Assembly (NCBI GenBank): GCA_030390025.1
Contig: CM059431.1
Coordinates: 140,184,001 to 140,248,000, forward strand
Origin: Squalus acanthias
Lineage: Eukaryota
DNA length: 64,000 bases
Reading direction: 5' to 3'
Made by a program: the position numbers and the translations under genes. Within the stretch, counting starts at the first letter, position 1, and each line of letters starts with the position of its first letter. Shown here one piece after another: positions 10,926 through 47,500 of the stretch. The notes under the pieces were generated by a model. It did no database searches and had not been told where the DNA came from. It saw only the letters and a list, made by a program, of their open reading frames with translations.

Positions 10926-11240
10926 GACATGCTTAACGTGCCAACTTATTAGGTGCATCTTTTCAATGTTTGGAAGCAAATTCAACAGTAACTTTTAAAA
11001 TGGAATTGGATATATACGTAAAGTGGAAAAACTTGCAATGCCAAAGGGCAGCTAAATGGACAAAGACACGATGGGCGAAATGGCATCTTTCTGTGCTGTA
11101 CTGTTCTCTGATTCTATGATTAAGGTGTAACTGAGTTCAGTGAGTGAAACATAAAGATCCAAACAGAGGGATACTGATAAAGGTGTGACTGAGTACAGTG
11201 AGTGATACACTGAGTTACCAGCAGAGGGCGATAGATAAAT

Positions 11241-23500: not shown

Positions 23501-26500
23501 GCTACTGACTGTTCAGTTTTTCTGCTTCCTTCTCCTACACACGTTGACAGTCCGGTGACTGTCATTCGCCCCTACATCTCGAGAAGAGGGTGCGATGCTC
23601 AGACACATGGACTGCTGCAGTTAATGTCGGTCTATGTGGGCAACAGCGAGAAGGAGCCTCACCAATGGGCGCATCTTAATCAGTGAGGAAACAGCAATAA
23701 ATATAATGTATTGCAATTAAATTATCAGACATTCAATGGCCTGTATTTGCTGATTCGATAAAGACTGTAAAATCCCGACTTTCTCACAAGGATCAGTTCT
23801 AGATTCTCCAGTCCTTAGGGAATTACTAACCGATTCTCTTATTATTGGTCATATTTGTGTTGAATCTGCTGCTCTCTGGTTTAACTGAACTGTTTGCTTC
23901 CCTTCATTACGGAGCAACAACATAATCCGTGACTGTTCTACAATTCGCCCAACAGTTAGAGACAAATAAACAGTTACCTCAACACCCGGCATTTGTGCAG
24001 TACGGGTCCCAGCCGCTGGATTCCTTCACACTGAATGTGGGAGTTCACTAGATTGAGTTCATTTATTGTATCACAGAGTCCAATGACATGAGACAGGACC
24101 ACACAGTCAATCGGGGTCAATCTCAATCCCCCAAATTCAAGTGTTTCCACAGATCCCACTGTGGCCCGAGCCAGTGCTTTATTTTGAGACTCAAACAGGT
24201 AGTGGAATGTGTTCAGGAGGTCCCTTTTACCAGTTTCACTCCCCTTTTTTCCCATCTGTCCTTCAACCTCCTCTTTCACCCAGTCAATCACTCGGCATGT
24301 TGTTTGATGAAGAAATGGACCCAGAATCTCCTCCAGGGGCCGAGCTGCCTGTGCGGAGGAGAGACCTGCAACAAAACGGAGAAATATCTCAAATCGCCCA
24401 TCTTCCTTGCTGTGGGCTTCTCTGAGGAGTTTCAGGATGTCCCCGGGATCTGCAGTCAGGAATTGTGAGAGTGCGGCTACAAACTCTTGGATGGTGAGGT
24501 GCGGGAATGTGTACACCACGCTCTGGGCAGAATAATCTCTCTCCAAAAGTTCCATCATAAACCCAGAGAGGAACTGGGAAGGTTGCAGATTGCAACTGAT
24601 CAAATCTCCATTTCTAAACACAATCTTCTTCTCGGAGACTCCTGTGAAAGCCATTTCACCAATTTTCAGTAACTCATCTCGGGGCATTTCAATCTCTCGG
24701 CCATGGTTTTTCAGAATGTTGTAAATATAGTAGGAATATAGTTGGGTGATGGTCTTGGGAACTCGCTGCTGATTCCTGTCTCTTTGTGTAAAGAAGGGAC
24801 CCAGTGCCAGACCGAGGATAAAGCAGTAGGAAGGGTTGTAGCACATGGTGTACAGGATCTCGTTCTCCTCCACGTGTTTGAAAACAGCTGCTGCCACCGT
24901 CTGATCTTCAAAAAACTTGTTGAAATATTCCTTCCGTTCTTCACCAACAAATCCCAGGATTTCAGCCCAGATACTGATCTCAGCCTTTTCCAATAAATGT
25001 AATGCAGTGGGGCGGCTGGTCACTAGCACTGAACACCCTGGGAGCAGCTTGTGCTGTATTAAACTGTACACAATGTCAGACACTTCACACCAGCATTCGG
25101 GATCTGTGCACATGTGCTGAGGTTCTGTATTTCTCCGATTGTCAGCAAAATCGATCCTATCCTTGAATTCATCCAAACCATCGAATATAAACAGCAATCC
25201 CTCTGGGTTCTTCCAGAGCTCCCTAAGAATATTCCCAAAGTAAGGATACTGATCCAGTATTAGATTCCTCAGGTTTATTCTACAGTTAATAGCGTTCAAA
25301 TCCCGAAATTTAAAACTGAAAACAAATTGAAAGTGTGGGTATATTTTCCCAGTGGCCCAGTCATGAACAATCTTCTGTACCATTGTTGTTTTTCCAATCC
25401 CCGGGACTCCGCTCACTGCTGCTGAACTCCCCCACTCTTCACTCACTGCTGCTGAACTCCCAGAATTGGATCGCCGGAAGAAACCCTTCATTTTCAGGAA
25501 CAAACTTCCTCTCCGGGAAAAACTGCTCTGGAACAATTGATCAGTTCGGACTTTTTCCAGTTCTCTCCGGAGATGTTCCTCTCTCCACTCTTCATGGTCT
25601 CGGCCTCTTGCCAGCAGTTCATGTTCTACAAGTGTCCGATCTCGAACAGTAGAAATGACCGTTAGCTCAGCGAATCGATCAACCAGCTGGAAAACCTTAA
25701 CCTTCTCCTTTATTAGGATAGTGTTCACTCTCAATGTTTCAGTTTGTACCCGGAGTGTTTCCTTGTGTTTCTGTTGTACATCTTCAATTGGAACAGACGG
25801 AAAATGGTTCTCAGTATTAGTTGTATTGACATAAAAACAACTTCTCAATACCATTTCACCATTCAGTAAAATGATGCAAGATTTAATTGGCAGTTTCGAT
25901 AGAGATGCATATAGAAATTAAAACTCAGTTAGTGGCTGAGAACTGTTTCAAATACTCACTTGATTCTAATATTTACTGGGAAATATGGAATAGAATATCA
26001 GTGGGATAAGGACAGACTGTGAAAGGTCAAGTGTCCCACTGTTGCTGTATCAGAACGTGGGCAGGTTATCAGCGTTAATGTGTGAATTGAGAGTGGGACA
26101 CACTGTGAATGGTCAAGTGTCCTACTGTTACTGTATCAGACCTTGGACAGGTTATATAGGGTATTTTGAGAATTGTGAGTGGGACAGACTGTGAATTGCC
26201 AAGTGTCCCACTTTTATTGTATGAGACCTTGGGCAGCTTATCTGGAGCATTGTGTGAATTTTGATTTGGAAAGACTGTGAATGGTCAAGAATCCCAATGT
26301 TACTGTATCAGACCTTTGGTAGGTTATCTAGGGTATGGTGAGAATTGTCAGTGGGACAGACTGTGAATGGTCAAGTGTCCCACTGTTACTGTATCAGACC
26401 TTGGGCAGGATATCTGGGGTATTGTGAGAATTGTGAGTGGGACAGACTGTGAATGGTCAAGTGTCCCACTGTTATTGTATCATAACTTGGCAGGATATCT

Positions 26501-29500
26501 GGGGTATTGTGTGAATTGTGAGTGGGACAGACTGTGAATGGTCAAGTGTCCCACTGTTATTGTATCATAACTTGGGCAGGATATCTGGGGTATTGTGTGA
26601 ATTGTGAGTGGGACAGACTGTGAATGGTCAAGTGTCCCACTGTTACTGTATCAGACCTAGGGCAGGTTATCTGGGGCATTGTGTGAATTGTGAGTGGGAC
26701 AGACTGTGAATGGTCAAGTGTCCCACTGTTACTGGATCAGACCTAGGGCAGTTTATCTGGGGCATTGTGTGAATTGTGAGTGGGACAGTCTGCGAATGGA
26801 TGGACGTTCCACTCGGCGTTCTATTTAACCATTGGCTGAGTTTCCGACCCCATATCCACTCCATCACGAAGTCTGCCTACTTCCACCTCTGCCATATCGT
26901 CAGTCTCCACCCTTGCCTCAGCTCATCTGCTGCTGCAACCCTCATCCGTGCTCTTCATTACATCCGGACTCGACTATTCCAATGGCCTCCTGGTTGGCCT
27001 CCCACCTTACACCCTCCATAAACAAGCTCATTTAAAACTCTGCTGCCCATGTCAGAATTCGCATCAATCCTGTTTACCCATTACCCATGTGCTACATTGG
27101 CTGCCGGTCAGGCAACGTCTCGATTTAAAAATTGTCATTCTTATTTTAGCCCCCCCCCCCCCCCCCCCCGGTTATCTCTGCAACCTCCTCCAGCCACACA
27201 ATCCTCCGAGTTAACTGTGCTCCTTCAATTCATGCCCCTTTCGCATATCGGATTTACTTCGCTCCATCATTGGCGGCCGTGCCTTCAGCTGCCAGGACGC
27301 TGAGCTCAGGAATTCCCATCCTAAACCTTTCCTTCCCTTAACAGAAGGTTCACTGCAAATGTCTCAGTGTTTGGACGGGTTAACTGGGGTATTGTGTGCA
27401 CTGAGAGATGGACAGTCTGTGAATAGACAGGAGGTAAATTGTTATTGTTTCAGGACTTGCGCAGGTTATCCAGTGTATTGTGTACACTGAGAATGATGAT
27501 TTAAGGTATGACGTAATAAAGACTCACTACGCACTTGAACATAAAGCAAGGCTTTAATCAACTTGTAACAAAACATGGAGGTCTAGTTAGCAGTCACTCG
27601 CTTCCTGTTTCCAGATTGTCTCTGCCCAAGGTGGGCCCATGCCTGAGTATTTATACTCCCTGGACGGCGCCCCAGCTGGCCGCCCAGTAGTACTTCCTGA
27701 GTTGTTACTTGCGATTTATGACATTCTTCCTCCCTAAAAGGTTTGGAAGTCCAGTCTTCCTTTAACGGACTAGGCGGACCAGAAATAGCCGTAGACGTTT
27801 AGCTCTCTGCTTGTGACCGGAAGGCACGTCTCCCCGGACCGTGTCCTGGTCCCTGGGTCGCTTGGCCCGTACCGGTAAGTCAGTAGAGTCCGCGTCATCT
27901 TGATCATCCTGTGGAGGACTGGGAATATCATGACTCCGGGTGCGGGTCCCCACAGGTGCTGAGCTGGCCTCATCCCGGGTCGTGGCTGGAGATTGTCCGG
28001 CGTCCTGGTTTCGGGTGGCCATCCTACGGGGAGCGTCCAGCTCCCTGAGTTGATCCGGTAGCGTTGCCGGCAGATCCCCCGATGTCCCAAGCGGGGCATC
28101 ATTTTCATAGGGGTGCGGAGTGTTGATATCATTGTCGGGGGATCCTTCATCATTCGGGCCCGTATGACCGGTTGGGCAGGGAGCCAGATCTCGGAGCGAG
28201 ACGGTGGTCTCCCGGCCATCAGGGTACCGTACGTGCGCATACGTGGGGTTTACCTCCGTTAACTCCACCTCGTCATCGAGAGGGTCGTTTTTGGCAGACC
28301 GGACGAACCTCCGGAGTAGCACCGGGCCTGGAGCCACCAACCATGACGGTAGAGACGTCCCATGTGTAGAGCGACGCCGGAATTTGAAGAATCACTCATG
28401 AGGCGTGACATTAGTAGACGTGGAGAGAAGAGACCTGATAGAGTGTAACACGTCGGGGAGCACCGTTTCCCACTGCTGGTCCGGTAGGTTGCGTGACCTT
28501 AGTGCCAGACGGACAGCGTTCCAGATGATGGCATTGTATCGTTCAACCTGTCCGTTACCGATTGGGTGATATGGTGTCGTCCTACTTGAGGCGATTCCCC
28601 GTTGGGAGAGATAACTTTTAAGTTCACTCGACATAAAGGAGGGACCCCGATCAGTGTGGATAAAATTGGCCGTCCCGCAAAGGGAAAAGACCTGATCGAG
28701 GCATTTAATTACCGTAGAGGTAAGCATATTAGGGCAGGGGAAGGCGAAGGGAAAGCGTGAATACTCGTCCACCATCGTAAGTAGGTAGGTGTTCCTTGTC
28801 GACGAAGGCAATGGCCCTTTAAAGTCTATGCTGAGCCTCTGCATAGGCTGCATTGCATGTATGAGTAAGCCATCTGATGGGCGAAAGAATTGTGGTTTCA
28901 ATTCTGCACAAATCCTACAGGAGGAGCATGTTTTCTTTACGTCCTCGGTTGAAAATGGTAGATTTTTGGAGCGCACAAAGTGCAACATGCGGGTCACACC
29001 AGGATGGCATAAGTCCATATGCAAATCCGCCAGAGTCGACGTTGACATTGAGGAGCAAAATGCCCGTGTGAAGGTATCTGGGGCCACGTTCTGTTTGCCG
29101 GGTCGGTAACAGATAGTATATCCAAAGGCAGCCAGCTCCATCCTCCAGAGTTGAATTTTATTGTTTTTGATTTTCGTGCGCCTCCGGTTATCCAACATGA
29201 AGGCCACAGAGCGCTGGTCAGTTATAAGCGTAAAATGACGCCGAGCAAGAAAATGACCCCATTGGCGTACAGCCTCGATGATGGCCGTAGCCTCCTTCTC
29301 GACGGGGGGGTAATGGAGCTCGCTACCCTGCAAGGTTCTGGATAGGAATGCCACGGGTCGGCCACCTTGATTCAAGGTAGCGGAGATCGCCACCTCCGAT
29401 GCATCGCATTCGACCACAAAAGGAAGATTTTCGTCAATGGAGCGAAGCGTGGCTTTCTCCAGCTGTCGTTTGAGAAGGTTGAAGGCAGAAATAGCCGTAG

Positions 29501-32500
29501 CTTCCAATGGAAAAGACTTCGCATGGAGCAGGGGCTGTATTTTATCGGAGAAGTGTGGTATCCATTTTGCGTAATAAGCAAACATGCCAAGTGCCCGACG
29601 AAGAGAGCCGAGGTTCGTCGGGGGAGGGAGCTCCTGAAGTGGACGAAGTCGCTCTGGGTCCGGTTTAATAACACCGTTGCCCACCCAGTAGCCAAGAATG
29701 TTCACCGATGGCACCGACTTCACCGATTTGGATTCGTTTAACGTTAAGTGGCGACGGCGGAGTACGTCAAAAAATCTCTGAAGATTGGCGTCATGCTCCT
29801 TTTGATCATGGCCGGCAATAGTGATATTGTCTAAATACGGAAAGGTATCCGTCAAGTTCTCTTGCCGGACTAGGCCATCCATGGCCCGTTGGAAGACGGC
29901 CACCCCATTGGTGACCCCGAATGGAAGGCGGCGAAACTGGAAAAGCCGACCATTGGCCTCAAAGGCCGTATACTTCCTGTCGGAGTCTTGCAGTGGCACC
30001 TGATGGTACGCGCTTTTTAAATCGAAGGTCGAGAATACCTTGTATTTGGCAAGGTTGTTGACCATGTCATCTATGCGTGGCAGCGGGTAGGCATCCAGAT
30101 CGGTATATAGATTAATAGTCTGCGAATAATCGATACACAGACGTTTTTTATGTTGTTTTAAGGGATTCCTCACGATGACGACCTGAGCCCGCCAGGGAGA
30201 TGAACATGGCTCGATAATACCGTCGACTAAAAGGCGAGAGATTTCCGCCTCAATAAACGCTCGATCGTCTTGGCTAAAGCGCCGCGATTTGGTGGCTATG
30301 GGTTTACAGCGGGGGGGAAGATTGGCAAACAGGGAGGGTTCACCGAGTAAGGCCGCCGAGAGTGCACAAAACGGCACCTTAGAAATGGTAAGCTCCGGCC
30401 TTGACCCTCCAAACTCAAAAGTGATCTTCTTGTGCTGCTTCTGGAAGTCCTGTCCCAGAAGCACATCGCTGCATAAGTTTGCGAGTACTCCGAGCCGGGT
30501 GGAGAGATACGTGCGGCCGTTGAGGATGAGGTTGACCAGACAGAAGCCAGAAGAATTGGTGGTCAGAGTCGTCAGAGCCATTGCAATCTCCCTGTCCGAG
30601 GGATAAATGTGCAGTTTTAACCTGTTGACAGCCCGCTTACTAATGAAGCTGTCAGAGCTGCAGGAGTCGATTAGCGCGCTTAGAGTGTGCCCATTTACTG
30701 AAACCTTCGTGGCTGCATGGGACAAACTTTGGGGAAAAACAGCCGTGATGGGAGGAGGGGCAATTTTCCCTTCGGCAACTGTAGCCTTAACAGTAGTTCT
30801 TGGGGGAGGAGCAGCTCCACAGATAGCAGCTGTGAAGCTAACAGGAGCTCTCGACCGGTATACTTTAGAGGAGCGGCCTTTCTTGTTAGCAAAGGCCCGT
30901 GACTGGCATACCTTGGAAAAGTGTCCTTTCTTGCTGAAATGATTGCAGGTCACATTACGAGCCGGGCAAAATTTTCTGTGATGGCACGCCCCTCCACAAA
31001 AGAAACACTTTCTTCCTGATTGTCAGGATGCTGCTAGGGCGGGGTCGTCATCAGTGAAGGCCTCTAGGGTAGGGTCGTCGTCCGTTAGAGTAGAGTCAAC
31101 ATCAGTGGGGGCATCCGCCCGAGACCTACCGAAAGACTCATTAAAGGAGATAGCCGCCGCCCGTGCACGTGCTGGGAGATAAGTGTCTGCATTTTTCTTG
31201 GCCAAGTCCAAGGAACACGCCTGGTCATAAGCAGCCCGTAAATTGAGGGTTTTATTTTCCAGCAGGCGCTGACGTATAAAAGGGGACGCGATTCCATTGA
31301 TAAAGGAATCGCGGATTAGTTCCTCTTGATACTGTTCAGCTGTAACTGCTTTAAGGTTACAATCCTTGCTGAGCCTGCGAAGTTTCTGGAGAAATTCATC
31401 GAATGATTCCCCAGGCTGCTGCCGAGTTGTGGCCAGTAGGTGTCGAGCAAATATTTCATTTGGGGACTTGACATATAGCTGCTGTAAGATTTCGATAGCA
31501 GTGTCATAGACTATACAGTCCTCAATATAATCATACACATGAGGAGACACGTAGTTGATAAGCATTCGTAACTTATTAGGGACATCCGCCCCACATTCTT
31601 CAAGAAAGTTGCTAAAGGTACGAAACCAATGCTTCCATACCTTCGCTGCCGCAGGTGCATTCGGGTCCAGGTCGAGACGAGCGGGTCTAAGGAGTTTCTC
31701 CATGATGGATCAGTTTCTTGCCCTAGTTCCCTTCTGTGGTTCGAGTTGCAGCTGGTTGTTCCGAATCACCCAAAGCGTGGAGACGATATCAAGTTGATTA
31801 AATTGACGTAATAAAGACTCACTACGCACTTGAACATAAAGCAAGGCTTTAATCAACTTGTAACAAAACATGGAGGTCTAGTTAGCAGTCACTAGCTTCC
31901 TGTTTCCAGATTGTCTCTGCCCAAGGTGGGCCCATGCCTGAGTATTTATACTCCCTGGACGGCGCCCCAGCTGGCCGTCCAGTAGTACTTCCTGAGTTGT
32001 TACTTGCAATTTATGACAAGGTATTCAGAGTTTAGGCTGTGAAAAGATTTGATGAGTTTTGTTTGGTCACGAGACTTCGGTATTGAAATGTTTTAATGGA
32101 ATTCACAAAATTAATGGAGGAAACAGGCTCACAATAAGCAAAATAATTAATAATGGAGTGAATTGAAAGTCAGTAGTAAGAAGGTAAATCAGGGTACTTT
32201 TGTCACCCAAGTTAATAGATCGGCTGGACCAGTTGCCAGTGAAGGACAGTAAGGGGCCTCGTTAGACGGGGTAGGGACAATTGAAAGTATTTGTGTAGAT
32301 ACACGGAGAGGAGGGGCAGGTGGGTCATCTCTAAAACAGGGACAGGCTTATTTTGGGTCAAATACCCAGTTTCTGTACCTAATCATTCTCCTGTTATAAT
32401 GAGCCGGATTTTCCGATCCCACGGGCGCGTACGAGGTGTGTACGCACCCGTAGGCCTCGCAAGTGCCGGTTTCAGGCAATAGAAGTTCATGGGTTGAAAA

Positions 32501-35500
32501 CAGGCACTTCCCATCTGTCATAATCCGCCTGCCCGGGAGAAGTGCCTCTGCGGATGGAGAGTTGCGCTTTTTGAATAACTTCCGCCCGCTGAAAGGCCAT
32601 AGAATTCTTATGCCTGGTAAAAGCAGTGATGAAAAATAGAAAAATTAAATTTGATAACTCATTTATAAATTAAAAATACTCTTCAAAAAAAGGTAAGTTT
32701 ATTTTTAGCCCCGTAAAAATATTTAAAAAATTTTTCAAAAATTTAATTTTTATTTTTTTTAACTAAATGGAATTTTAGTTAATTTTAATTTAGTAATGTT
32801 TTTTTTAATGTATTTAATGTTTTAATGTGTTTTTAAATGTGATCTCCATTCATACTTTTGACAGTTCTGTGCGTACAGACCTGTCAAAAATATGAAGGAG
32901 GATTCCCGTCTTTGATTGGTTCGCCTAGCCCACGTGATCCCAGGGGCACACGTGATCCCAGGGGCGCTTGCGATCCGCATGCGTATCCGGAGAGGCCCAG
33001 GATCGCAAGCCTCTGGACCTATGGAACATTTAGGGAGGTTTGTACATTTTTCCGATCGGAGGCATCCGCACGAAGGAAGGCTCGCAATGGAAATTGAGGG
33101 CCATTGTTTTTCAGAAATTGCGAACAATTTTTTCAGCAGTTTCACACATAGGTTGATTGAAAGTGTTTTATAACAATCCGCTGTCATGTCACCGATTAGG
33201 TACAGAAATAGAACTATAGCCCACTTCACTCAATTTAATGTTAGAGCAGAAAACATTTACAGTTCATTTGAAATGTTCTACCATTAATTATACGCCGTTG
33301 TTTAATTTTGGTCTTAGTTTCCTATACTTCAGGTTTGGGAACTAACATATGTTTCCGTTAGTCATTACATTGGGTCTAAAAAGACTCGTGAATTGAAGGA
33401 CTATTCTTTGAGTAGAATAATGTTCGCTCTTTCACTGCATTTGGGAAGCTAGACAATGACCTCCTAGTCAGCCTGAACATTATGGCCCGGATTTTGCTGT
33501 AATAATAATGGCGAGACTTTCATCGCTCGCCGTTATTACTGGGCAAAATTGACAGCAACTTCTTGTGACCGCACATGCGCAGTTATAGGTGGAAATCCAG
33601 AAGTTGCTGTCAGAGATACCCTGCTCTTCCACAAGAGGCGCTGTTGCAGTCCTCGCCGATAGAGTCGGCATTGAAATCACTGCAATGGCGTAAACTTGGG
33701 GTACTTACCCAGTAGTTCCACACTAAAGACGGCTGAAAGATTTAGGGCGAGTGCATTCAGGGGTAAGTGAGTTTTTAAACGGAGTAATATGTGATAATTA
33801 CTGCTGAACAATCTTTCTGGCACAGAAAAAATAATTATAAATGTGTGGAGTCTCATACCCACAGAAGAAAATTAATGTTGCTGATTTAAAATATATATAT
33901 ATGTTTGGATATTTATTTTTCTGTTTGTCACCTTTATTTCTCTTCCTTAATCCCATGTATATTTCTCAAACTTTATTTCATTTTCTCTACATGATATAAA
34001 TGAAATTAATATTTTCTGTTTTATAAATCCTGGTTTGGAATCTGAATTTCTCAGTGAGGATACTTCCATGTGATTGGTTGAAGAGCCTCGCTGTTTCTTC
34101 GTCTTCTCACTGTCCACAGATCCCCTGTAGAGGGCTGGAAAAGACAACTGATGGCAGCATGTCTGTGCTGTAAAGATGGTCAAATCTTTGTGGGTAGCTG
34201 TCCACGTGCCTTTGACGCTGTTTTGTAATCCTGCAATGTGTGTGCGGGATTTTGCAGTGTATCGGGATGCTGCCAGGTCTGTATGGGGTTTCACGGTGTA
34301 TCGGGAGCCTGCAAAGTATGTATAGGGTTTTCACAGTGTATCAGGATCCTGCCAGGTGTGTATGGGGTTTCAGAGTGTATCAGGATACTGCCAGGTGTGT
34401 ATGGGGTTTCACAGTGTATCAGCATCCTGCCAGGTGTGTATGGGGTTTCACAATGTATCGGAATGCTGCCAGGTGTGTATGGGGTCTGACCGGGTATCAG
34501 AAACGTGCTAGGTGTCTATGGGGTTTCGCAGTGTATCATAAACCTGCCAGGTGTGTATGGGGATTCACAGTGTATCAGGATCCTGCCAATAGTGTATGGG
34601 GTTTCACAGTGTATAAAGATCAGGCCAGGTTTCCTGGAGTGTATACGGGATGGTTTCCTGGACCAATATGTCGAGTAACCAACTAGAGATCAGGCCATCT
34701 TAGACTGGGTATTATGTAATGAGAAAGGATTAATTAGCAATCTTGTTGTGCGAGGCCTCTTGGGTCAGAGCGATCATAATATGATCGAATTCTTCATTAA
34801 GATGGAGAGTGAAGTAGTTCACTCAGAGACTAGGGTCCTGAATTTAAATAAAGGAAACTACGATGGTATGAGGCGCGAGTTCGGTAGGATTGATTGGGGA
34901 ATGTCACTCAAAGGGTTGATGGTGGAGAGGCAATGGCAAGCATTCAAAGATTACATGAATGAACTACAGAATTTGTTCATCCCAGTTTGGCATAAAAATA
35001 AAACAAAAAAGTTGAATCAACCGTGGCTAACAAAGGAAATTAGGGATAGCATAAGATCCAAGGAAAGGACATATAAATTGGCCAGAAAAAGCAGAAAACC
35101 TGAGGATTGGGAGCAGTATAGGATTCAGCAAAGAAGGACAAAGGGATTAATTAAGAGGGGGAAAATAGAGTATGAGAGTAAGGTTGCGAGGAACATAAAA
35201 ACTGACTGCAAAAGCTTTTATAGATATGTGAAGAGGAAAAGATTGGTGAAGTCAAGCGTAGGTCCCTTGCAGTCAGAATCAGGGGAATTTATAATGGGGA
35301 ACAAAAAAATGGCAGACCAATTAAATACATACTTTGGTTCTGTCTGCACAAAGGAGGACACAAATAACCTCCCAGAGATGTCGGGGAACATAGGGTCTAA
35401 TGAGAAGGAGGAACTGAAAGAAATCAGTATTCGTAGGGAAATAGTGTTAGGGAAATTGACGGGATTGAAGGCCGATAAATCCCCAGAGCCTGATAATCAA

Positions 35501-38500
35501 CATCCTAGGGTACTTAAGGAAGTGGCCCTAGAAATAGTAGATGCATTGCTGGTCATCTTCCTAAATACTATAGACTCTAGAACAGTACCCATGGATTGGA
35601 GGGTAGCTAATGTTACCCCACTATTCAAAAAAGGTGGTAGAGAGAAAACGGGGAAATATAGACCAGTAAGCCTGACATCGGTAGTGGGGAAAATGCTAGA
35701 GTCCATTATAAAAGATGTAATAGCAGAGCACTTGGAAAACAGTGACAGGATCGAATAAAGTCAACATGGATTTACAAAAGGCAAATCGAGCTTGACTAAT
35801 CTACTGGAATTTTTTGAGGATATAACTGGTAAAATGGATAAGGGAGAACCAGTGGATGTGGTGTATTTGGACTTTTAGAAGGCTTTCGATAAGGTCCCGC
35901 ATAAGAGATTAGCGTGTAAAGTTAAGGCACATGGGATTGGGGGCAAGGTATTGACTTGGATAGAGAACTGTTTGGCAGAAAGAAAGCAAAGAGTTGGAAT
36001 AAACAGGTCTTTTTCCGAGTGACAGGTGGTGACTAGTGGGGTACCGCAGGGATCGGTCCTAGGACCCCAGCGATTCACAATATATATTAATGATCTGGAC
36101 GATGGAATTGGATGTAATATCTCCAAGTTTGCAGACGACACAAAGCTGGGTGGGAGTGTGTGCCGTGAGGAGGATGCCGAGAATCTCCAGTATGATTTGG
36201 ACAGGTTGGGGGATTGGGCAGAAGCATGGCAGATGCAATATAATGTCGATAAATGCGAGGTTATCCACCTTGGTGTCAAAAACAGGAAGGCAGATTATTA
36301 TTTGAATGGCAATAGATTGGGAGAAGGGGAAGTGCAACGAGACCTGGGTGTCCTTGTGCACCAATCGCTGAAGGTAAGCATGCAGGTGCAACAGGCGGTT
36401 AAGAAGGCAAATGGTATGTTGGCCTTCGTAGCGAAAGTTTTCGAGTACAGGAACATGGATGTCTTGCTGCAGTTGTACAGGGCCTTGGTGAGACCACACT
36501 TTGAGTATTGTGTGCAGTTTTGGACGCCTTATCTGAGGAAGGATGTCCTTGCCATGGAGAGAGTGCAGCGAAGATTCACCAGACTGATACCTGGGATGGC
36601 AGGAATGGCGTATGAGGAGAGATTGGGTCGATTGCGCTTACACTCACTGGAGTTTAGAAGAATGAGAGGAGATCTCATTGAAACTTATAAAATTCTAACA
36701 GGACTAGACAGACTAGATGCAGGAAGAATGTTCCCGATGGCCAGGGAGTCCAGAACCAGGGGTCAGTCTTAGGATAAGGGGTAAGCCATTTAGGACAGAG
36801 ATGAGGAGGAATTTCTTCACCCAGAGAATGGTGAACCTGTGGAATTCTCTACCACAGAAGGCAGTAGAGGCCAATTCATTAAATATATTCAAGAAAGAGT
36901 TAGATATATTTCTTAAAACTAAAGGGATCAAGGGATATGGAGAGAAGGCAGGGATAGGGTACTGAATTTGGATGATCAGCCATGATCTCATTGAATGGTG
37001 GAGCAGGTTCGAGGGGCTGAATGGCCTACTCCTGCTCCTATCTTCTATGTTTCTATGGGGTTTCACAGTGTATCAGGTTGCTGCCAGGTGTGTTTCGGGT
37101 GTCACAGTGTATCAGGACCCTGACAGTTGTGTATGGGGTTTCACAGCGTTTCAGGATTCTACCAGGTATATATGGGGTTTCACAGTTTATCAGTATCCTG
37201 ACAGACGTGTAGGGATTTCACAGTGTATCAGGATCCTGCCAGGGGTGTATGGGTTTTCACAGTGTATCAGGATGCTGCTTAGTGTGATTGGGGTTTCACA
37301 GTGTTTCAGGATCCTGCCAAGTGTGTATGGGGTTTCACAGTGCATCAGGATCCTGCCAAGTGAGTATGGGGTTTAACAATGTATCGGGATGCTGCCAGTT
37401 GTTTATAGTGTCTCAGAGGGTATCAGAAACCTGCCAGGTGTCTATGGGGTTTCACAGTGTATCAGGATACTGCCAGTTGTGTCTGGTCTTCCACAGTGTA
37501 TTGGGATGCTGCCAGGTGTGTATGGGGTTTCACAGTGTATCGGGAGCCTGCAAAGTGTGTATAGGGTTTCACAGTGTATCAGGATCCTGCCAGGTGTGTA
37601 TGGGGTTTCACAGTGCATCTGGATCCTGCCAGGTGTGTATGGTGTTTCACAATGTATCGGAATGCTGCCAGGTGTGTATGGGGTTCCACAGTGTATCAGG
37701 AACCTGCCAGGTGTTTATGGGAATTCGCAGTGTATCAGGATCCTGCCAGGTGTGTATGGGGTTTCATAGCGTATCAGGACCCTGACAGTTGTGTATGGGG
37801 TTTCACAGTGTATCAGGATTCTACCAGGTATATATGGGGTTTCACAGTTTATCAGTATCCTGACAGGCGTGTAGGGATTTCACAGTGTATCAGGATCCTG
37901 CCAGGGGTGTATGGGATTTCACAGTGTATCAGGATGCTGCTTAATGTGATTGGGGTTTCACAGTGTATCAGGATCCTGCCAAGTGAGTATGTGGTTTAAC
38001 AATGTATCGGGATGCTGCCATGTGTGTATGGTGTCTCACAGGTCATCAGAAACCTGCCAGGTGTCTATGGGGTTTCACAGTGTATCAGGATCTTGCCAGT
38101 TGTGTATGTAGATTCACAGTGTATCAAGATCCTGCCAGGTTTGTATGTGGTTTCACAGTGTATCAGGTTTGTACCAGGTGTGTATGGGGTTTCACAGTGT
38201 ATCAGGATTCTACCAGGTATATATAGAGTTTCACAGTGTATCAGAATCCTGACAGGCGTGTAGTGGTTTCACAGTATATCAGGATCCTTCCAGGGGTGTA
38301 TGGGGTTTCACAGTGTATCAGGACCCTGCCAGGGGTGTATGGGGTATCAAAGTGTATCAGGATGCTGCTTAGTGTGATTGGGGTTTCACAGTGTTTCAGG
38401 AACGTGCCAGGTGTGTATGGGGTTCCACAGTGTATCAGTATCCTACCAAGATTGTATGAGGTTTCACAGTATATCGGGATCTTGACAGGTGTGTATGGGG

Positions 38501-41500
38501 TTTCACAGTGGATCAGGATCCTGCCAGGTGTGTATGGGGTTTGACATTGTATCAGGATCCTGCCAGGCGTGTATGGGGTTTCACAGACTACAGCATCCTG
38601 CAAGGTGTGTATGGGGTTTCACAGTGTTTCAGGATCTTGCAAGGTGTGTATGTGGATTCACAGTTTAGCAGGATCCTTCCAGGTGTGTATGAAGTTTCAC
38701 AGTGCGTCACGTTCCTGACAGGTGTGTATGGCGCTTCACAGTATGCTAGGATCCTGCCAGGTGTTTATGGCGTTTCACTGTGTATCAGGATTCTAACACG
38801 TGTGTAAGGGGTTTCACAGTGTATCAGGATCCTGCCAACTTCGTATGGGAATTCACAGGGTATCGGGATCATGCCAGGTGTGTATGGGGTTTCACAGTGT
38901 ATACTGATCCTGCCAGATGTGTATGGGGTGTCACAGTGTATCAGCAACCTGCCAGGTGTGTATGGGGTATCGCAGACTATCAGGATACTGCCAGGTGTGT
39001 ATGGGGTTTCACAGTGTATCAGGATTCTACCAGGTGTGTATGGGGTTTCACAGAGTATCAGGATCCTGTCAGGTGTGAATGGGGTTTCACAGTTTATCAG
39101 GGTCCTGCCAGGTGTGTATGGGGTTTCGCACACTATCAGGATACTGCCAGGTATGTAAGGGGTTTCACAGTGTATCAGGATTCTACCAGGTGTGTATGGG
39201 GTTTCACTTTGTATCAGGATCCTGACAGGTTTTTATGGGGCTTCACAGTGTATCGGGATCATGCCAGGTGTGTATGGGGTTTCACAGTGTATCAGGAACC
39301 TGCCAGGTTCGTATGGGTTTTCACAGTCTACAGCTTCCTGCCAAGTGTGTATATTGTTTCAAAGTGTATCAGGATCCTGCCAGGTATGTATGGGGTTTCA
39401 CAGTCTACTGGATTCTGCCAGATGTGTATGGAGTTTCACATTGTATCAGGATCCTGCCAGGTGTGTATGGGGTTTCACAGTGTATCAGGATCCTGCCAGG
39501 TGTGTATGGTGTTTCACAGTGTATCAGGACCCTGCCAGTTGTGAATGGGGTTTCACAGTTTATCAGGGTCCTGCCAGATGTGTATGGGGTTTCACAGTAT
39601 TTCGAGATCCTGCCAGGTGTGTATGGGGTTTCACAATGTATCAGAATCCTTCCAGATGTATATGGGATTTCACAGTGTATCAGGATTCTGCCAGGTTTGT
39701 GCGGGTTTTCACAGTGTATCAGCAATCTACCAGGTGTGTATGTAGTTTCACAGTATTTCAAGATCCTGCCAAGTGTGTATCGGGTTTCACAGTGTATCAG
39801 GACCCGGACAATTGTGTATGAGGTTTCACAGTGTATCAGTTTCCTCACAGACGTGTAGGAGTTTCACAGTGTATCAGGATCCTGCCAGGTGTGTATGGGG
39901 TTGACAGTGTATCGGGATCCTGTCAAGTTTGTCTGAGGTTTCACAGTGTATCAGGATCCTGTCAGGAATGTGTGGGGTTTTCAGTGTTTCATTTTTCCGC
40001 CAGGTGTGTATGGGGTTTCACAGTTTATCAGGGTCCTGCCACCTATGCGTTGGGTTTCAAAAGTATCAGGATCCTGCAAGCTGTATGGGGTTTCACTGTG
40101 CATCTTGATCCTTCCAGGTATGTATGGGGTCTCACAATGTATCAGGATACTGCCAGATGTGTATGGGGTTTCACTGTGTATCAGGATCCTGCCAGCTGTT
40201 TTGGGGGTTTCACTGTGTATTAGGATCCTGACAAGTATGTATGGGGCTTCACAGAGTATCGGGATCATGCCAGGTGTCTATGTGGTGTCTCAATGTATCA
40301 GGATTCTGCCAGATATGTATGGAGTTTCACAGTGTATCAGGAACCTACCAGGTTTGTATGGGGGTTCACAGTCTACAGATTACTGCCAAGTGTGTATGTT
40401 GTTTCAAGATATATCAGGATCCTTCCAGGTATGTATGGGGTTTCACAGTCTACTGAATCGTGCCAGGTGTGTATGGAGTTTCACAGTGTATCAGGATCCT
40501 GCCAGGTGTGTATGGGGTTTCACAGTGTATTAGGATCCTGCCATTTGTGTATGGTGTTTCACAGTGTATCAGGATCCTGCCAGTTGTGTCTGGGGTTTCA
40601 CAGATTATCAGGATCCTGCCAGATGTGTATGTGGTTTCACAGTGTATCGCGATCATGCCAGATGTGTATGGGGTTTCACTGTGTATCGGGATCCTATCAG
40701 GTGTGTTTGGGGTTTCACAGTGTATCAGGATCCTGCCAGGTGTGTACGAGATTTCACAGTATATCAGGATCCTGCCAGGTGTGTGCGGGTTTTCACAGTT
40801 TATCAGAATTCTACCAGGTGTGTATGGTGTTTCAGAGTATATCCAGATCCTGCCAGGTGTATATGGGGTTTCACAGTGTATCAGTATCCTGCCAAGATTG
40901 TATGAGGCTTCACAGTGTATTGGGATCATGCCAGGTGTGAATGGGGTTTACAGTGGATCAGGATCCTGCCAGATGTGTATGGGGTTTCACATTGTATCAG
41001 GATCTGCCAGGACTGTATGTGATTTCACAGACTACAGGATCCTGCAAGCTGTGTATGGGGTTTCACATCGTATCAGGATCCTGCATGGTGTGTATGGCGC
41101 TTCATAGAGTACTAGGATCCTGCCAGGTGTGTATGGCGTTTCACAGTGTATCAGGATACTGCCAGCTGTGTATGGGGTTTCACACTGTATCAGGATGCAG
41201 CCTGGTGGATATGGCGTTTCACAGTGTGTCAGGTTTCTACCGGGTATGTAAGGGGTTTCTCAGTGTATCACGATCCTGCTAGCTGTTTATTGGGGTTTCA
41301 CGTTGTATCAGGATCCTGCCAAATTTGTATTGGGTTTCACAGGGCATCGGGATCATGTCAGGTGCGTATGGGGTTTCACAGGGTATACTGATCCTGCCAG
41401 GTGTGTATGGGGTTTCGCAGTGTATCAGGATACTGCCAGGTGTGTATGGGGTTTCACTGTGTATCAGGATCATGCCAGCTTTTTTTGGGTTGTCACTGTG

Positions 41501-44500
41501 CATCAGGATCCTGACAAGTTTGTATGGGGTTTCACAGTGTATCAGGAACCTGCCAGGTGTGTATGGGGTTTCACAGTCTGCAGGTAGAATAGATTACGGA
41601 GAACCAGTGGAGTCGGTGTATTTAGATTTGCAGAAGGCTTTCGATAAGGTCCCGCACAAGAGATAAGCGTGCAAAGTTAAAGCACATGGGATTGGGGGTA
41701 AGGTACTGTCTTTGATAGAGAACTGCTTGGCAGACAGGAAGCAAAGAGTTGGAATAAACGGGTCTTTTTCCGAGTGGCAGGCAGTGACTAGTGGGGTACC
41801 GCAGGGATCGTTGCTAGGACCCCAGCTATTCACAATATATATAAATGATCTAGACGAGGGAACTAGATGTTATATCTCAAGTTTGCAGAATACAGAAAGC
41901 TATGTGGGCGTGTGTGCTGTGAGGAGGATGCAGAGAAACTCCAGTATGATTTGGACAGGATGAGTGATTGGGCAGATGCATGGCAAATGCAGTATAATGT
42001 GGATAAATGCGAGTTTATCCACTTCGGTGGCAAAAATAGGAAGACAGATTATTATCTGAACGGCAATAGATTGGGAAAAGGGGAAGTGCAACGAGACCTG
42101 GGCGTCCTTGTGCACCAGTCGCTGAAGGTATGCATGCAGGTGCAGCAGGCGGTTGAGAAGGCAAATGGTATGTTGGCCTCCATAGGGAGAGGATTCGAGT
42201 ACAGGAGCAAGGATGTCTTGCTGCAGTTGCAGAGGGCCTTGGTGAGATCACACCTCGAGTATTGTGTGCCGTTTTGGTCGCCTTATCTGATGAAGGATGT
42301 TCTTGCCATGGAGCGAGTGCAGAGAAGATTCACCAGACTGATACCTGGGATGGCAGGAATGACGTATAAGGAGACATTGGGTCGATTAGGGTGGAGTTTA
42401 GAAGAATGAAAGGGGATCTCCTTGAAACTTACAAAATTCTAACAGGACTAGACAGACTAGATGCAGGAAAGATGTTCCCGATGGTGGGGGAGTCCAGAAC
42501 CAGGGGTCACAGTCTAAGGATAAGTGGTAAGCCATTTAGGACTGAGATCAGGAGGAATTTCTTCACCCAGAGAGTGGTGAATCTGTGGAATTCTCTACCA
42601 CACAAGGCAGTTGAGGCCAATTCATTAAATATATTCAAGAAGGAGATAGATATATTTCTTAATGCAAAAGGGATCAAGGGATATGGGGAGAAGGCAGGGA
42701 CAGGGTACTGAGTTTGGATGATCAGCCATGATCTCATTAAATGGCAGAACAGGCTCGATGGGCCGAATGGCTTACTCCTGCTCCTATCTTCTATGTTTCT
42801 ATGCTTCCTGCCAGGTGTGTATTTGTTTTCATAGTGTATCAGGATCCTGTCAGGTATTTATGGGGTTTCACAGTCTACTGGATCCTTCCAGGTGTGTATG
42901 GAGTTTCACAGTGTATCAGAATCCTGCCAGGTGTGTTTGGGGTTTCACAGTAAATCGGGATCTTACCAGGTGTGTATGGGGTTTCACAGTGTTTCAGGAT
43001 CCTGCCAGTTGTGTCTGGGCTGCCACAGTGTAACGGGATCCTGTCAGCTGTGTATGGGGTTTCACAGTGTATCGGGATCATGCCTGATGTATATGGGGTT
43101 TCACATTGTATCAGCATCCTGCGACGTATGTATGGGATTTCACAGTGTATCAGGATCCTGCTGGGAATGTGTGTTGTTTCACAGTGCATCAGGATCCTGC
43201 CAGGAGTGTATGGGGATTCACAGTGTATTAGAATCCTGCCAGCTGTGTATGGGGATTCACAGTGCATCAGGATCCTTTCAGCTGTGAATGGCGTTTCACA
43301 GTGTATCAGGATCCTGCCAGGTGTGTATGGGGTTTCACAGTGAATCAGGATTACATAGAAACATAGCAGATAGGAGCAGGAGTAGGCCATTCGGCCCCTC
43401 GAGCCTGCTCCTCCCTTCAATGCGATCATGGCTGATCATCCAAATTCAATACCCTGTCCCTGCTTTCTCCCCATATCCCTTGATCCCGTTAGCCTTAAGA
43501 AATGTATCTAACTGCTTCTTGAATATATTTAATGAATTGGCCTCAACTGCCTTCTGTGATAGAGAATTCTACAGGTTCACCACTCTCTTGGTGAAGAAAT
43601 ACCTCCTCATCTCAGTCCTAAATGGCTTACCCCTTATCCTTAGAGTGTGACCCCTGATTCTGGACTCCCGTGACATCGGAAACAGCCTTCCTGCCTCTAG
43701 TCTGTCTAGTCCTGTTAGAATTTTATAAGTTTCAATGAGATCCCCTCTCATTCTTCTAAACTCTAGCGAATATAAGCCTAATCGACCCAATCTTTCTTCA
43801 TACATCATACCTGCCATCCCAGGTATCAGTCTGGTGAATCTTCGCTGCACTCCATCCATGGCAAGAACATCCTTCCTCAGATATGGCGACCAAAACTGCA
43901 CACAATACTCAAGGTGTGGTCTCTCCAAGACCCTGTACAACTGCAGGAGTCCTGCCAAGAATTTCTGGGGATTCATAGTTTATCAGGATCCTGCCAGGTG
44001 TGTATGAGGTTTCACAGTGCATCAGGGTCCTGCCAGGAACGTGTGGGGTTTCACAGTTTATCAGGATTCTGCCAGGTGTGTATGGGGTCTCACAGTGTAT
44101 CGGGATCATGCCAGATGTGTATGGGGTTTCACAGTGTACCGGGATCCTGCAATAGCTGTATGGGCTTTCAAAGTGTATCAGGATCCTGCCAAGGGTGTAT
44201 GCGGCTTCACATTGTATCACGATCCTGCCAGTTGTGTGGGGGATTTCACAATGTATCAGGATCATGCCAGGAATGTGTGGGGTTTCACAACGTATCAGGG
44301 TCCAGCCTGGTTTGCATGGGGATTCACCGTATGTAAGGATCCTGCCAGTTGTGTTTGGGTTTTCGCAGTGTTTCAGGATGCTACGAGATTTGAATGGCGT
44401 TTCACAATGTATCGGGATCCTGCCAAGTGTACATGGTGTTTCACAGTGTATCAGGATCCTGCCAGGAATGTGTGAGGTTTCACAGTTTATCAGGATCCTG

Positions 44501-47500
44501 CCAGGTGTAAATGAGGTTTCAAAGTGCATCAGGGTCCTGCCAGGAATGTGTAGGTTTTCACAGTGTATCAGCTTCCTGCCAGGTTTGTATGGGGTTTCAC
44601 AGTGTATCAGGATCATAATGAGAAGTCGCACAACACCAGGTTATAGTCCAACAGATTTATTTAATTTTACAAGCTTTCGAAGCAGTTCGCTCCTTCGTCA
44701 GGTAAGTTAGCAATGAGAGAATCTCCCAGAATTCACAATTCTCTCATTGCTAACTTACCTGACGAAGGAGCGAACTGCTTCGAAAGCTTGTAAAATTAAA
44801 TAAATCTGTTGGACTATAACCTGGTGTTGTGCGACTTCTCATTTTTGTCCACCCCAGTCCAACGCCGGCATCTCCACATCATATCAGGATCATGACAGTT
44901 ATGTGTGTTTTTTCTCATTGTATCAGGCTCCTGCCAGGTGTGTATGGCGTTTCCCAATTATTTCAGGATCCTTTAAGGTGTCTATGGGGTTTCACAGAGT
45001 ATCAGGATCCAGCCAGGTGTGTATGGGGACTCTCATTGTATCAGGATCCTCCCTGGTGTGTATGGGGATTAACAGTGCATCAGGATCCTGCCAGTGTGTA
45101 TGGGGTTTCACAGTGTAACATGATACTTCCAGGTATGTAAGGTGTTTCACAGTGTATCAGGATCCAGCCAGGTGTGTATGGGTTCTCTCAGTGTATCAGG
45201 ATCCTCCCAGGTGTGTATGGTGTTTCACAGTGTAACATGATACTTCCAGGTATGTATGGGGTTTCACAGTGTATCAGGATCCTGCCAGGTGTGTATGGGG
45301 TTAAACAGTGTATCAAGACCATTCCAGGTGTTTCAGGGGTTTCACAGTGCATCAGGAACGTGCCCGGTGTTTATGGGGTTTCACAGTGTATCAGGATCCT
45401 GCCAGGTGTGAATGAGGTTTCACAGTTTATCAGGATCCTGACAGCTGTGTGTGTGGTTTCTCATTGTATCAGGATCCTACCAGGTGTGTATGGGTTTTCA
45501 CAGTGTATCTGGATCCTACCAGGTGTGTATGGGGTCTCAGTGTATCAGGATCCTGCCAGGTGTGTATGGGATTTCACAGTGTATCTGGATCATACCAGGT
45601 GTGTATGGGGTTTCACAGTGTATCAGGATCCTGCCAGGTGTGTATGGGATTACACAGTGTAACTGGATCCTACCAGGTGTGTATGGGGTTTCACAGTGTA
45701 TCAGGATCCTGCCAGGTGTGTATGGGGGTTCACAGTGTATCAGGATTCTGCCAGGATTGTTTGGGGTTTGAAAGTGTATCTGGATCCTACCAGGCGTGTA
45801 TGAGGTTTCACAGTGTAGCAGGATTCTGCCAGGATTGTATGGGGTTTGAAAGTGTATCCGGATCCTGCCAGGATTGTATGGGGTTTCACAGTCTATCAGG
45901 ATCCTGCCAGAAGTTTATTTGGTTTGAGAGTTTTTCGGGAAACAGCCAGGTTTTATACTGGGTTTCACCGTGTAGCAATATCCTGCCAGGTGTGTATGGG
46001 GTTTTTACAGTGTATCAGGATCCTGCCAGGAGTGAAGGTGGTTTCACAGTGTATCAGGATCCGGTCAGGAGTGAAGGGGGCTTCACAGTGTATCAGGATC
46101 CTGACAGGTGTATATGAGGTTTTTACAGTGTATCAGGATCCGGTCAGGAGTGAAGGGGGTTTCACAGTGTATCAGGATCCAGCCAGGTGTGTATGGGGTT
46201 TCACAGTGTATCAGGATCCTGCCAGGTGTGTATGGGGTTTCACAGTGTATCGGAATCATGCCGTCGTTTATGGGGTTTCACAGTGTATCAGGATCCTCCC
46301 AGGAATTTGTGCGGTTTCACAGTGTATCAGGATTCTGACAGGTGTTTATGAGGTTTAACAGTGCATCAGGAATCTGACAGCTGTGTGTGGGGTTTCTCAT
46401 TGTATCAGAATTCTAGCAGGTGTGTATGGGGTTTTTCACTCAATCAGGTTCCTGCCACTTTTGTATGGTGTTTCACATTGTATCAGGATCCTGCCAGGTG
46501 TGTATGGGGTTTCACAGTGTATCAGGATCCTGCCAGGTGTGTATGGTGTTTTACAGTGCATCTGGATCCTGCCAGGTGTGCACAGCGTTTGACAGTTTAT
46601 CAGGATGCTGCCATTAGTGTATGTGGATTCACATTGTATCCGGATCTTGCCAGGTGTGTATGGGTTTTCACTGTGTATCACGATCCTTCCAGGTGTGTAT
46701 GGAGTTTGAAAGTGTATCAGGATCCTGCCAGGTGTGTATGGGGTTTCTCAGTCAATCAGGATTCTGCCAGGTGTGTATGGGGTTTCACAGTGTATCAGGA
46801 TTCTGCCAGGTGTGTATGGGGTTTCACAGTGTATCAGGATCCTGCCAGTTGTAGGTGATGCGCAGTTGGATTAACTGAAGCATACAATACATGCAACTTT
46901 ACCAGTAATTTAAATATCGGATTTAATTTTAAAGTAAAGCTATGCAGAGCTTTTTTGGATTCATCACGAATCCAAATGACGTTCAATGCTGTTTGCCCAG
47001 CCTTTGTACCTCTGACTGCCAGATTCTGACAACCTCTAAACAAACGGCTACTTTCAAACATTCTGATTCTCAACTGAATAAGCAATTTGAAATCTGCAGG
47101 TCATCATTACCTTTTAGGTGCCTGGGTACTTCGGATAAACCTTGTCTGATGTTCATGTAATCAAATGGATCAGAACCTGTTTAAATCAATGAACTTTCAT
47201 GAAATCAGATCTGTGTGATATTATAGTAAAATCTGCAGTGTTTGAATCTGTATTTGAATTCAGTGTGTGATTTTACCGTACCAAGTTCCTGTATTTCTCT
47301 CAGTATTTTGTCCAGCTTTGGTAACCTGTGGCGCATTTTCAGAAAGGATTCCCACATCACCCTTCGAGCCCCAGAGCCTTTCTCCATCACCAGAGTTAGG
47401 AGAAGTTTGGAACTGTCCGCCCGGTTTCCCTTCTCCGCGATCTCAGTGACTTTCTGTAAAGAATAATAATGAATGTATTTGTGAGTGGAGTGAAAGATAA

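What the first reader, a model, noticed from the sequence alone, without database searches (positions are those of the whole stretch)
31788..31862. Gypsy element lacks a tRNA PBS; the PBS position is a 13-nt perfect complement of its own LTR poly(A)-signal region
Seen (minus strand): after the 5' LTR comes A-TTTAATCAACTTG with no TGG. It pairs exactly with CAAGTTGATTAAA inside the LTR (31848-31860), which contains ATTAAA. Established: Tf1/sushi-type elements self-prime by pairing the PBS with the transcript 5' end. Here the partner lies about 85 nt downstream of the TATA box rather than at the expected start site. Inference: either a different self-priming mode (for example from the cleaved R region or RNA 3' end), or a hairpin that hides the poly(A) signal only in the 5' LTR, or both.
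Basis: partly seen in the sequence, partly recalled or inferred. Interest (0 to 1): 0.7.

Follow-up and report, generated by a model that had tools for sequence, protein, structure and literature searches.

The report
Self-priming Gypsy retrotransposon lineage in animals
This young jumping gene and its relatives carry, where a host tRNA normally binds, a short sequence that pairs with the element's own end-repeat, so the lineage very probably starts copying itself with a piece of its own RNA, as the fission-yeast element Tf1 does, but with a different RNA fold.

Summary
Confirmed. A 4.5-kb Ty3/Gypsy element (27509-32018, minus; LTRs 98.6% alike; two in-frame stops) has no TGG primer site. After CA-A comes a 13-mer that pairs exactly with 31848-31860 of its own LTR (0 of 5000 shuffles reach 12). 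The pairing is clade-wide. In 23 LTR families (RT-RNase H 45-76% identical), 290 of 299 pairs hold, against 195 in cross-family permutations; there are 22 different 13-mers, all in one register. One copy 98-99% identical to its siblings changed arm and primer site together. A second hairpin starts directly after the arm in 19 of 23 families (null 5.7); the flanking duplexes of the Tf1 'pretzel' are not supported; no chromodomain was found. Self-priming with a cut at UAAA|GCC is likely (about 0.85). Whether the primer is the transcript's first 13-16 bases or an internal arm of a longer leader is open: no RNA data; TATA spacing is not conserved. Only 12 of 23 arms hold a canonical poly(A) hexamer, so occlusion looks secondary. 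This scan reached the same reading before on other copies in this genome.

The parts
32019..32023 (-). target-site duplication TACCT, 5' side
31804..32018 (-). 5' LTR, 215 nt, TG..CA
   Evidence: blastn to 3' LTR, 98.6%
31943..31950 (-). TATAAATA, candidate TATA box of this family; lies in a 32-nt stretch (31922-31953) shared with contigs of about 8-fold higher depth
   Evidence: function not shown
31848..31860 (-). LTR arm = putative self-primer CAAGUUGAUUAAA; ends in ATTAAA (31853-31848); predicted cut between 31848 and 31847
   Evidence: the cut is inferred
31826..31847 (-). hairpin P2, starting at the first base after the arm
   Evidence: 19 of 23 families
31808..31825 (-). U5 hairpin of this copy; not conserved as a class
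31803..31803 (-). one-base spacer between the LTR-terminal CA and the primer site
   Evidence: A 18, T 3, G 2 of 23 families
31790..31802 (-). primer-binding site TTTAATCAACTTG, exact complement of the arm, no TGG
27762..31703 (-). single gag-PR-RT-RNase H-IN frame (RT motif YLDN, no chromodomain), interrupted by in-frame stops at 31023-31025 and 28392-28394
27724..27735 (-). polypurine tract
27509..27723 (-). 3' LTR with second arm copy at 27565-27553 and no primer site behind it
27504..27508 (-). target-site duplication TACCT, 3' side

Best explanation
tRNA-free self-priming. In the element's RNA, the LTR arm folds onto the site one base behind the 5' LTR and forms a 13-16 bp RNA duplex (P1). 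A small hairpin (P2) starts at the next base and can stack on it. The element's RT/RNase H cuts at the P1/P2 junction (..UAAA|GCC..), and the freed 3'-OH primes minus-strand cDNA across U5. The stretch between the cut and the poly(A) site serves for the first strand transfer. The primer is later copied into the plus strand, which rewrites the primer site from the arm and keeps the two matched. In about half of the families the same helix also buries the poly(A) hexamer, in the 5' LTR only. SHOWN: anatomy, missing TGG, fixed register, covariation, P2 enrichment. INFERRED by analogy with Tf1: the cut, the priming, the copying of the primer. OPEN: the primer's 5' end. My split of the total: first 13-16 bases of the transcript 0.45, internal arm of a longer capped leader 0.33, RNA 3' end or a second RNA 0.07.
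For: 23 families: 290 of 299 Watson-Crick pairs at -1..-13 against 195.4 +/- 7.3 in 20000 cross-family permutations (max 235); 22 different 13-mers; the spacer is one base in the register used. With LTR ends fixed by the direct repeat alone, 17 of 19 loci give an exact match of 11 nt or more, and the 2 misses are explained. No TGG at any site. L011, 97.8-98.8% identical to four siblings, has G>T in both LTR arms and the matching C>A in the primer site. Sister families on the RT tree carry different, self-matched arms. P2 starts at +1 in 19 of 23 families against 5.7 +/- 2.0 in shuffles, max 12 of 200. The geometry (arm 3' end at the LTR-proximal end of the primer site) is that of Tf1: PMC7175516 passage, 11-base primer cut by RNase H; PMC11042837 passage, the primer site is copied into the cDNA 3' end.
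Against: No biochemical or RNA-end evidence: the one raw RNA run laid 0 reads, and contigs cannot show ends. The flanking duplexes that Tf1 needs are not supported (mean z -0.01; LTR-end pairing 74 against 95 in shuffles). P2 is kept mostly by fixed letters (CC/GG), with changes in only 3 families, so it may be a sequence motif. L014 has an arm change in both LTRs that the primer site does not follow, L012 has a mismatch in the primer site, and L022 and L063 have one imperfect pair each. One run holds an LTR variant at 31855 with no matching primer-site variant listed. In L002 no complement of the arm was found in the 118 nt present before gag. Families share ancestry, so the permutation figure is not a probability of independent events.
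Confidence: 0.8

Rival explanations
1. Variant within self-priming: the arm is internal. Transcription starts about 30 nt behind the TATA box (near 31920), so the primer is a capped fragment of roughly 70 nt of which only the last 13 bases pair. The 5' end of the transcript would play no part in priming, unlike in Tf1.
For: Clear TATAAATA 90 nt before the arm, with hexamer and GU-rich U5 in ordinary LTR spacing. The TATA stretch is what much deeper contigs share with this LTR. Pairing runs on past the initiator-like A at -11 (41 of 46 pairs at -12/-13 against 19.9; 39 of 69 at -14..-16 against 24.4), then fades rather than stopping sharply.
Against: No TATA at this or any fixed distance in other families, including the nearest one, L001. 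An initiator-like YYAGY sits at -13..-9 in 10 of 23 families and AG at -11/-10 in 16 of 23. L018 has only 50 nt from LTR start to arm end. All self-primers in the papers read are 5'-terminal.
Confidence: 0.33
2. The primer comes from the 3' LTR copy of the arm (same or co-packaged RNA), cut or ended at UAAA.
For: The arm is present in both LTRs and ends in or next to the poly(A) hexamer. The L011 and L014 states fit this too.
Against: The local 5' fold is favoured: the hexamer is almost fully paired in the 5' context. A cut at the 3' copy would remove the stretch needed for strand transfer (inference). No precedent in the papers read.
Confidence: 0.07
3. The helix only hides the poly(A) signal in the 5' LTR, and priming uses an unidentified host RNA (tRNA half or other).
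For: ATTAAA is buried in the 5' context and was open in one of three 3' folds; 12 of 23 arms carry a canonical hexamer.
Against: 11 of 23 arms lack it, and 4 families have a hexamer in the loop. Occlusion does not need a one-base register against the LTR end. 22 different site sequences follow the LTR, not one host RNA. No TGG. The two 10-mers searched did not occur in the supplements of PMC13524379, which include a table of tRNA primer sites (a weak test).
Confidence: 0.1
4. Chance inverted repeat or one-off rearrangement.
For: AT-rich sequence; the region as a whole folds no better than shuffles; one false anchor (L039/L040) did arise in my search.
Against: 0 of 5000 shuffles reach 12 nt; conserved in 23 families.
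Confidence: 0.01

Closest known systems
Tf1/Tf2 (Schizosaccharomyces pombe), Tj1 (S. japonicus) and the Tf1/sushi group of chromoviruses
   Same: No tRNA site; the primer site directly behind the 5' LTR is complementary to the element's own LTR in the priming orientation; Ty3/Gypsy domain order.
   Different: No chromodomain or Tf2-type SH3 family hit in this element or in 16 of 16 relatives scanned. Duplex of 13-16 rather than 11 bp. The flanking pretzel duplexes are not supported; a local hairpin starts at the predicted cut instead. The arm ends in a poly(A)-type hexamer in about half of the families. The 5'-terminal position of the primer is not shown.
Tcn1-clade Gypsy and TAR (Houba, Osr-1) Copia elements of plants and fungi
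   Same: Self-priming predicted from the same signature (10 bp or more of complement, starting 0-5 bp behind the LTR; PMC6317226 passages), so the trait is already known to recur.
   Different: Other lineages and hosts; Tcn1 is a chromovirus relative, TAR is Copia.
Fungal GalEa Copia 'Conserved Hairpin Site' and dictyostelid Skipper polypyrimidine site
   Same: tRNA-less primer positions (PMC5445492 and PMC5006619 passages).
   Different: There the site has no complement in the LTR; here it has.
Named marine-animal Gypsy clades (Mag A/B/C, Cigr-1, Tor2, MolGy1-16)
   Same: Host range and a compact single frame make one of these the likely home (inference). Two Cys-His knuckles and an RRS..P.RY-like end recall Mag-type elements (recalled, from no call).
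   Different: Could not be assigned: no reference sequences were available. PMC6238403 has no occurrence of 'PBS' or 'primer' in its main text.

Membership tests
Ty3/Gypsy LTR retrotransposon | LTRs TG..CA, target duplication, PPT, domain order PR-RT-RNase H-IN | tested here: met
   best solved relative is Ty3 RT
tRNA-primed Gypsy | primer site begins TGG, complementary to the tRNA CCA end | tested here: not met
   (none of the 24 sets examined)
tRNA-half-primed elements | site complementary to an internal part of a host tRNA | not testable with these tools
   no host genome held; indirect evidence against: 22 different sites that follow the LTR
Tf1/sushi self-priming group | primer site complementary to own LTR in priming orientation | tested here: met
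Tf1/sushi self-priming group | [quoted passage not shown] | tested here: inconclusive
   no RNA ends; TATA and initiator signals conflict
Tf1/sushi self-priming group | three-duplex 'pretzel' with two PBS-adjacent duplexes | tested here: not met
   mean z -0.01 for the downstream duplex; LTR-end pairing below shuffles
Tf1/sushi self-priming group | chromodomain at the integrase C-terminus | tested here: not met
   Pfam: none in this element, in 16 of 16 relatives at E<=0.05, or among the precomputed domains of the 120 listed hits
Tf1/sushi self-priming group | RT phylogeny nested in chromoviruses | not testable with these tools
   no named reference sequences could be fetched; the tree holds clade members only
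Tf1/sushi self-priming group | RNase H-dependent cut that releases the primer | not testable with these tools
   needs biochemistry
Mag / Cigr-1 / Tor2 / MolGy clades | RT/RNase H placement with reference elements | not testable with these tools
   supplement searches for clade motifs found nothing

The most novel reading that the evidence does not exclude
A widespread, chromodomain-less animal Gypsy lineage arrived at self-priming independently of Tf1/sushi, by turning a hairpin that hides its poly(A) signal into the primer. RT/RNase H cuts at a P1/P2 helix junction inside the leader, so the primer is a long capped fragment and priming does not depend on where transcription starts. One RNA switch would then couple 5' read-through to the start of reverse transcription.
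Probability: 0.25. Interest if true: 0.75.

Novelty: new variant of a known kind. Interest (0 to 1): 0.52.

Why it matters
Self-priming has been demonstrated only in fission-yeast Tf1-type chromoviruses and predicted for a few other lineages. A large lineage with relatives annotated in crustaceans, cnidarians, a tunicate and cartilaginous fishes appears to do it with another RNA fold. That makes two open questions testable on short RNAs: what an LTR-element RT/RNase H recognises when it cuts an RNA duplex to make its own primer, and whether the primer must be the transcript's 5' end. Such elements would not depend on host tRNA supply and would offer no tRNA-complementary site to tRNA-fragment silencing (inference). 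Pipelines that require a tRNA primer site would also score them as incomplete (inference).

Tried and rejected
No whole genome is held, so copy number, host tRNAs and sister copies could not be examined. Viral-contig scans found no relative. The run search listed no holder on record as RNA. The one raw RNA run laid 0 reads, and the contig runs cannot show starts or ends: no verdict on the start or poly(A) site. ARAGORN found no tRNA in the window; Rfam gave one chance-level hit in the element. A splice-acceptor-like signal upstream of the arm was rejected (4 of 23 against 3.7 in shuffles). A TATA box at a fixed distance was rejected. Pretzel side duplexes were not supported. A first P2 test with dinucleotide shuffles was weaker (summed stem length 105 against 89.2 +/- 4.9, max 106 of 300, L039 still included). 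L039/L040 were dropped: their 73-bp inverted repeat is not at an LTR end; the counts (302 of 312, 24 sets) include them, those do not. Naming the clade failed: 'YLDN' is in no paper, and there were no motif hits in the supplements of PMC6238403, PMC8556966 or PMC13524379. Some files were not searched: one picture PDF in each of the first two papers, and files 13 and 14 of PMC8556966. bioRxiv supplements are closed. The Atlas search confirmed only a retrotransposon Gag. A sequence look-up in earlier findings gave nothing.

Full report
1. Observation. The finding lies at the 5' end of a full-length LTR element on the minus strand. The LTRs are 32018-31804 and 27723-27509, 215 nt, 98.6% identical with 3 substitutions. 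They are flanked by the 5-bp duplication TACCT, and a purine tract abuts the 3' LTR. One frame runs from 31703 to 27762 and is interrupted by two in-frame stops. Pfam gives protease, RT, RNase H, integrase zinc finger and core in Ty3/Gypsy order, with no chromodomain. The best solved relative is Ty3 RT. Behind the LTR-terminal CA stand one A and TTTAATCAACTTG, the exact complement of 31860-31848. In 5000 dinucleotide shuffles of the LTR the best such match never passed 11 nt. The wider region folds no better than shuffles. TATAAATA is at 31950-31943.

2. Relatives. A protein search with the RT-RNase H region gave 2427 hits among 8000 scored candidates. The 120 listed are 60-85% identical; those with names come from crustaceans, cnidarians, a tunicate and two cartilaginous fishes. 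An alignment of 51 of these proteins fetched 80 metagenome loci (the best 80 of 566) and 9 genome-contig loci. The hosts of these loci are unknown. Of the 89 loci, 41 had a gag match and 33 of those could be anchored at an LTR end. The 8 others were as follows. L025, L053, L055, L056 and L080 lack the gag start. L023 lacks a recognisable 5' LTR. L019 has the site at the contig start and a 12-nt match to the arm cut by the contig end, read by eye. L002 shows no complement in the 118 nt present. Among the 48 loci without a gag match, L045 is a rearranged copy of the L013 family with a 19-nt match. L039/L040 were first anchored and then dropped as a 73-bp inverted repeat unrelated to an LTR end. 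The rest gave no usable anchor.

3. Covariation. The 33 loci plus the window form 23 LTR families, with RT-RNase H segments 45-76% identical to the window's. In a register of one spacer base, 290 of 299 positions at -1..-13 are Watson-Crick pairs. Pairing each arm with another family's site gives 195.4 +/- 7.3 (max 235 of 20000). There are 22 different 13-mers. Pairing stays in excess at -14..-16 (39 of 69 against 24.4) and is at background from -17 (49 of 207 against 53.1). Because those anchors were found by looking for inverted repeats, I repeated the test on loci whose LTR end is fixed by the direct repeat alone: 17 of 19 give exact matches of 11-17 nt. The two misses are L018, where the script took the wrong end of a circular contig (true match 11 nt), and L034, whose 5' LTR has a substitution while its 3' LTR matches over 16 nt. 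No site starts with TGG. On the RT tree (22 of 23 families; L050 too short) sister families carry different, self-matched arms, for example the window with L001 and L067, or L011 with L013. Within one young family, L011 (97.8-98.8% identical to four siblings) has G>T in both LTR arms and the matching C>A in the site, while L014 has an arm change in both LTRs that its site does not follow. These are the two states expected if the arm is passed on through the 3' LTR and the site is rewritten from the primer one cycle later (inference). Selection on independent mutations could give L011 too, but less easily. Families are related, so the permutation test shows matching, not independent events.

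4. RNA fold. The fixed point is the arm's 3' end: mostly ..TAAA followed by RCCT. In the fold of the 23-67 nt loop alone, a helix starts at the first base after the arm in 19 of 23 families, against 5.7 +/- 2.0 in shuffles that keep the first four bases (max 12 of 200). It is mostly CC/GG. L082 has it inverted, and L083 and L018 change one pair each, so the evidence is enrichment more than covariation. The two duplexes that flank the primer helix in Tf1's 'pretzel' (described in 10.1101/2022.12.06.519325, passages) are not supported: mean z -0.01 for leader-loop pairing, and 74 paired bases at the LTR end against 95 in shuffles.

5. Poly(A) signal. 12 of 23 arms hold AATAAA or ATTAAA, and 4 families have one in the loop. 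In this copy the hexamer is 0-20% unpaired in the 5' context at all three start points tried. In the 3' context it is open in one fold and mostly paired in two. Occlusion may be a side benefit; it does not explain the one-base register or the arms without a hexamer.

6. Where does the RNA start? Not determined. No listed holder is on record as RNA, the one raw RNA run laid no reads, and contigs cannot show ends. For an upstream start in this family: a clear TATA box 90 nt before the arm, in the stretch shared with contigs of about 8-fold higher depth, and pairing that runs 2-5 bases past the initiator-like A. For a start at the arm: YYAGY at -13..-9 in 10 of 23 families, which resembles the initiator TCAKTY named in PMC3601003 (section 10 and passages); AG at -11/-10 in 16 of 23; an 80-nt LTR in L018; and no TATA box at the window's distance in the 11 other families with an anchored LTR start, nor at any fixed distance.

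7. Mechanism. The orientation, with the arm's 3' end against the LTR-proximal end of the site, is the one needed to prime minus-strand synthesis. It matches Tf1, where RNase H cuts between bases 11 and 12 (PMC7175516, passage) and the primer site is copied into the cDNA 3' end (PMC11042837, passages). I therefore infer a cut at UAAA|GCC, at the junction of P1 and P2, priming from the freed end, and strand transfer through the short stretch up to the poly(A) site. Self-priming in some form: about 0.85 (5'-terminal 0.45, internal arm 0.33, 3'-derived 0.07). Occlusion alone with an unknown primer: 0.1.

8. Comparison and novelty. It works like Tf1/Tj1 (PMC4600332, passages) but should not be filed in the Tf1/sushi group: the chromodomain is absent in the window and in 16 of 16 relatives, and the pretzel is not met. 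A tree with named references could not be built, so independent origin is inferred, not shown. Self-priming is already predicted for Tcn1 Gypsy and TAR Copia elements (PMC6317226, passages). Other tRNA-less sites lack an LTR complement (PMC5445492, PMC5006619, PMC6934838, passages). Ten searches returned no paper that, by title, abstract start or the passages read, describes self-priming in a non-chromovirus animal Gypsy clade. Most listed papers were seen only as listings. The library lacks most subscription journals, Repbase and GyDB, and the original Tf1/sushi papers were not seen. PMC6238403 (passages, supplement search), PMC8556966 (supplement search only), PMC4402516 (passages) and PMC13524379 (passages, supplement search) did not let me name the clade. 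Unsearched supplement files may bear on that.

9. Earlier notes. This scan recorded the same reading for several other copies in this genome. I had formed my reading before seeing them; they are not independent evidence.

10. Verdict. A real, lineage-wide feature; a new variant of a known kind; interest 0.52. The bold reading, internal-arm priming coupled to poly(A) masking and of independent origin, has a probability of about 0.25.

Noticed in passing
window 31922-31953: The TATA-containing 32 nt of the LTR are shared with contigs of about 8-fold higher depth whose flanks still resemble this LTR: an abundant sister LTR family. The GC-rich stretch just before the TATA box resembles a CTCF-type site (recalled motif).
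   Followed up: partly
window 31804-32018: In runs X1 and X4 the LTR contigs are about 5-6 times deeper than the internal contig (110 against 17; 243 against 49), which suggests many solo LTRs or non-autonomous copies; X4 holds an LTR variant with a change inside the arm and a 4-nt insertion.
   Followed up: no
window 23974-25917, minus: 647-aa open frame with NACHT, NOD2 winged-helix and NLRC4 HD2 domains, an NLR-type immune gene exon about 1.6 kb downstream of the element.
   Followed up: no
window 11235-13262, plus: 675-aa open frame with an RT domain, probably a LINE fragment.
   Followed up: no
window 1052-9385, 34255-46848, 54973-56859, 26010-26799: Large minisatellite arrays with units of 39-41, 39, 27 and 86 nt.
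   Followed up: no
L081-L089: Nine loci from assemblies labelled as bacterial genomes carry these animal-type LTR elements; most likely eukaryotic contigs binned by mistake (inference).
   Followed up: no
L045:3289-7703: A copy with identical LTRs whose interior is partly inverted, with a 380-bp inverted duplication in the integrase region.
   Followed up: partly
L009, upstream of and behind the primer site: An 18-nt stretch directly behind and overlapping the primer site is repeated in the same orientation in the LTR about 50 nt before the arm (read by eye); unexplained.
   Followed up: no
L018:98-250: 80-nt LTR, and the primer site occurs twice, 56 nt apart, before gag.
   Followed up: partly
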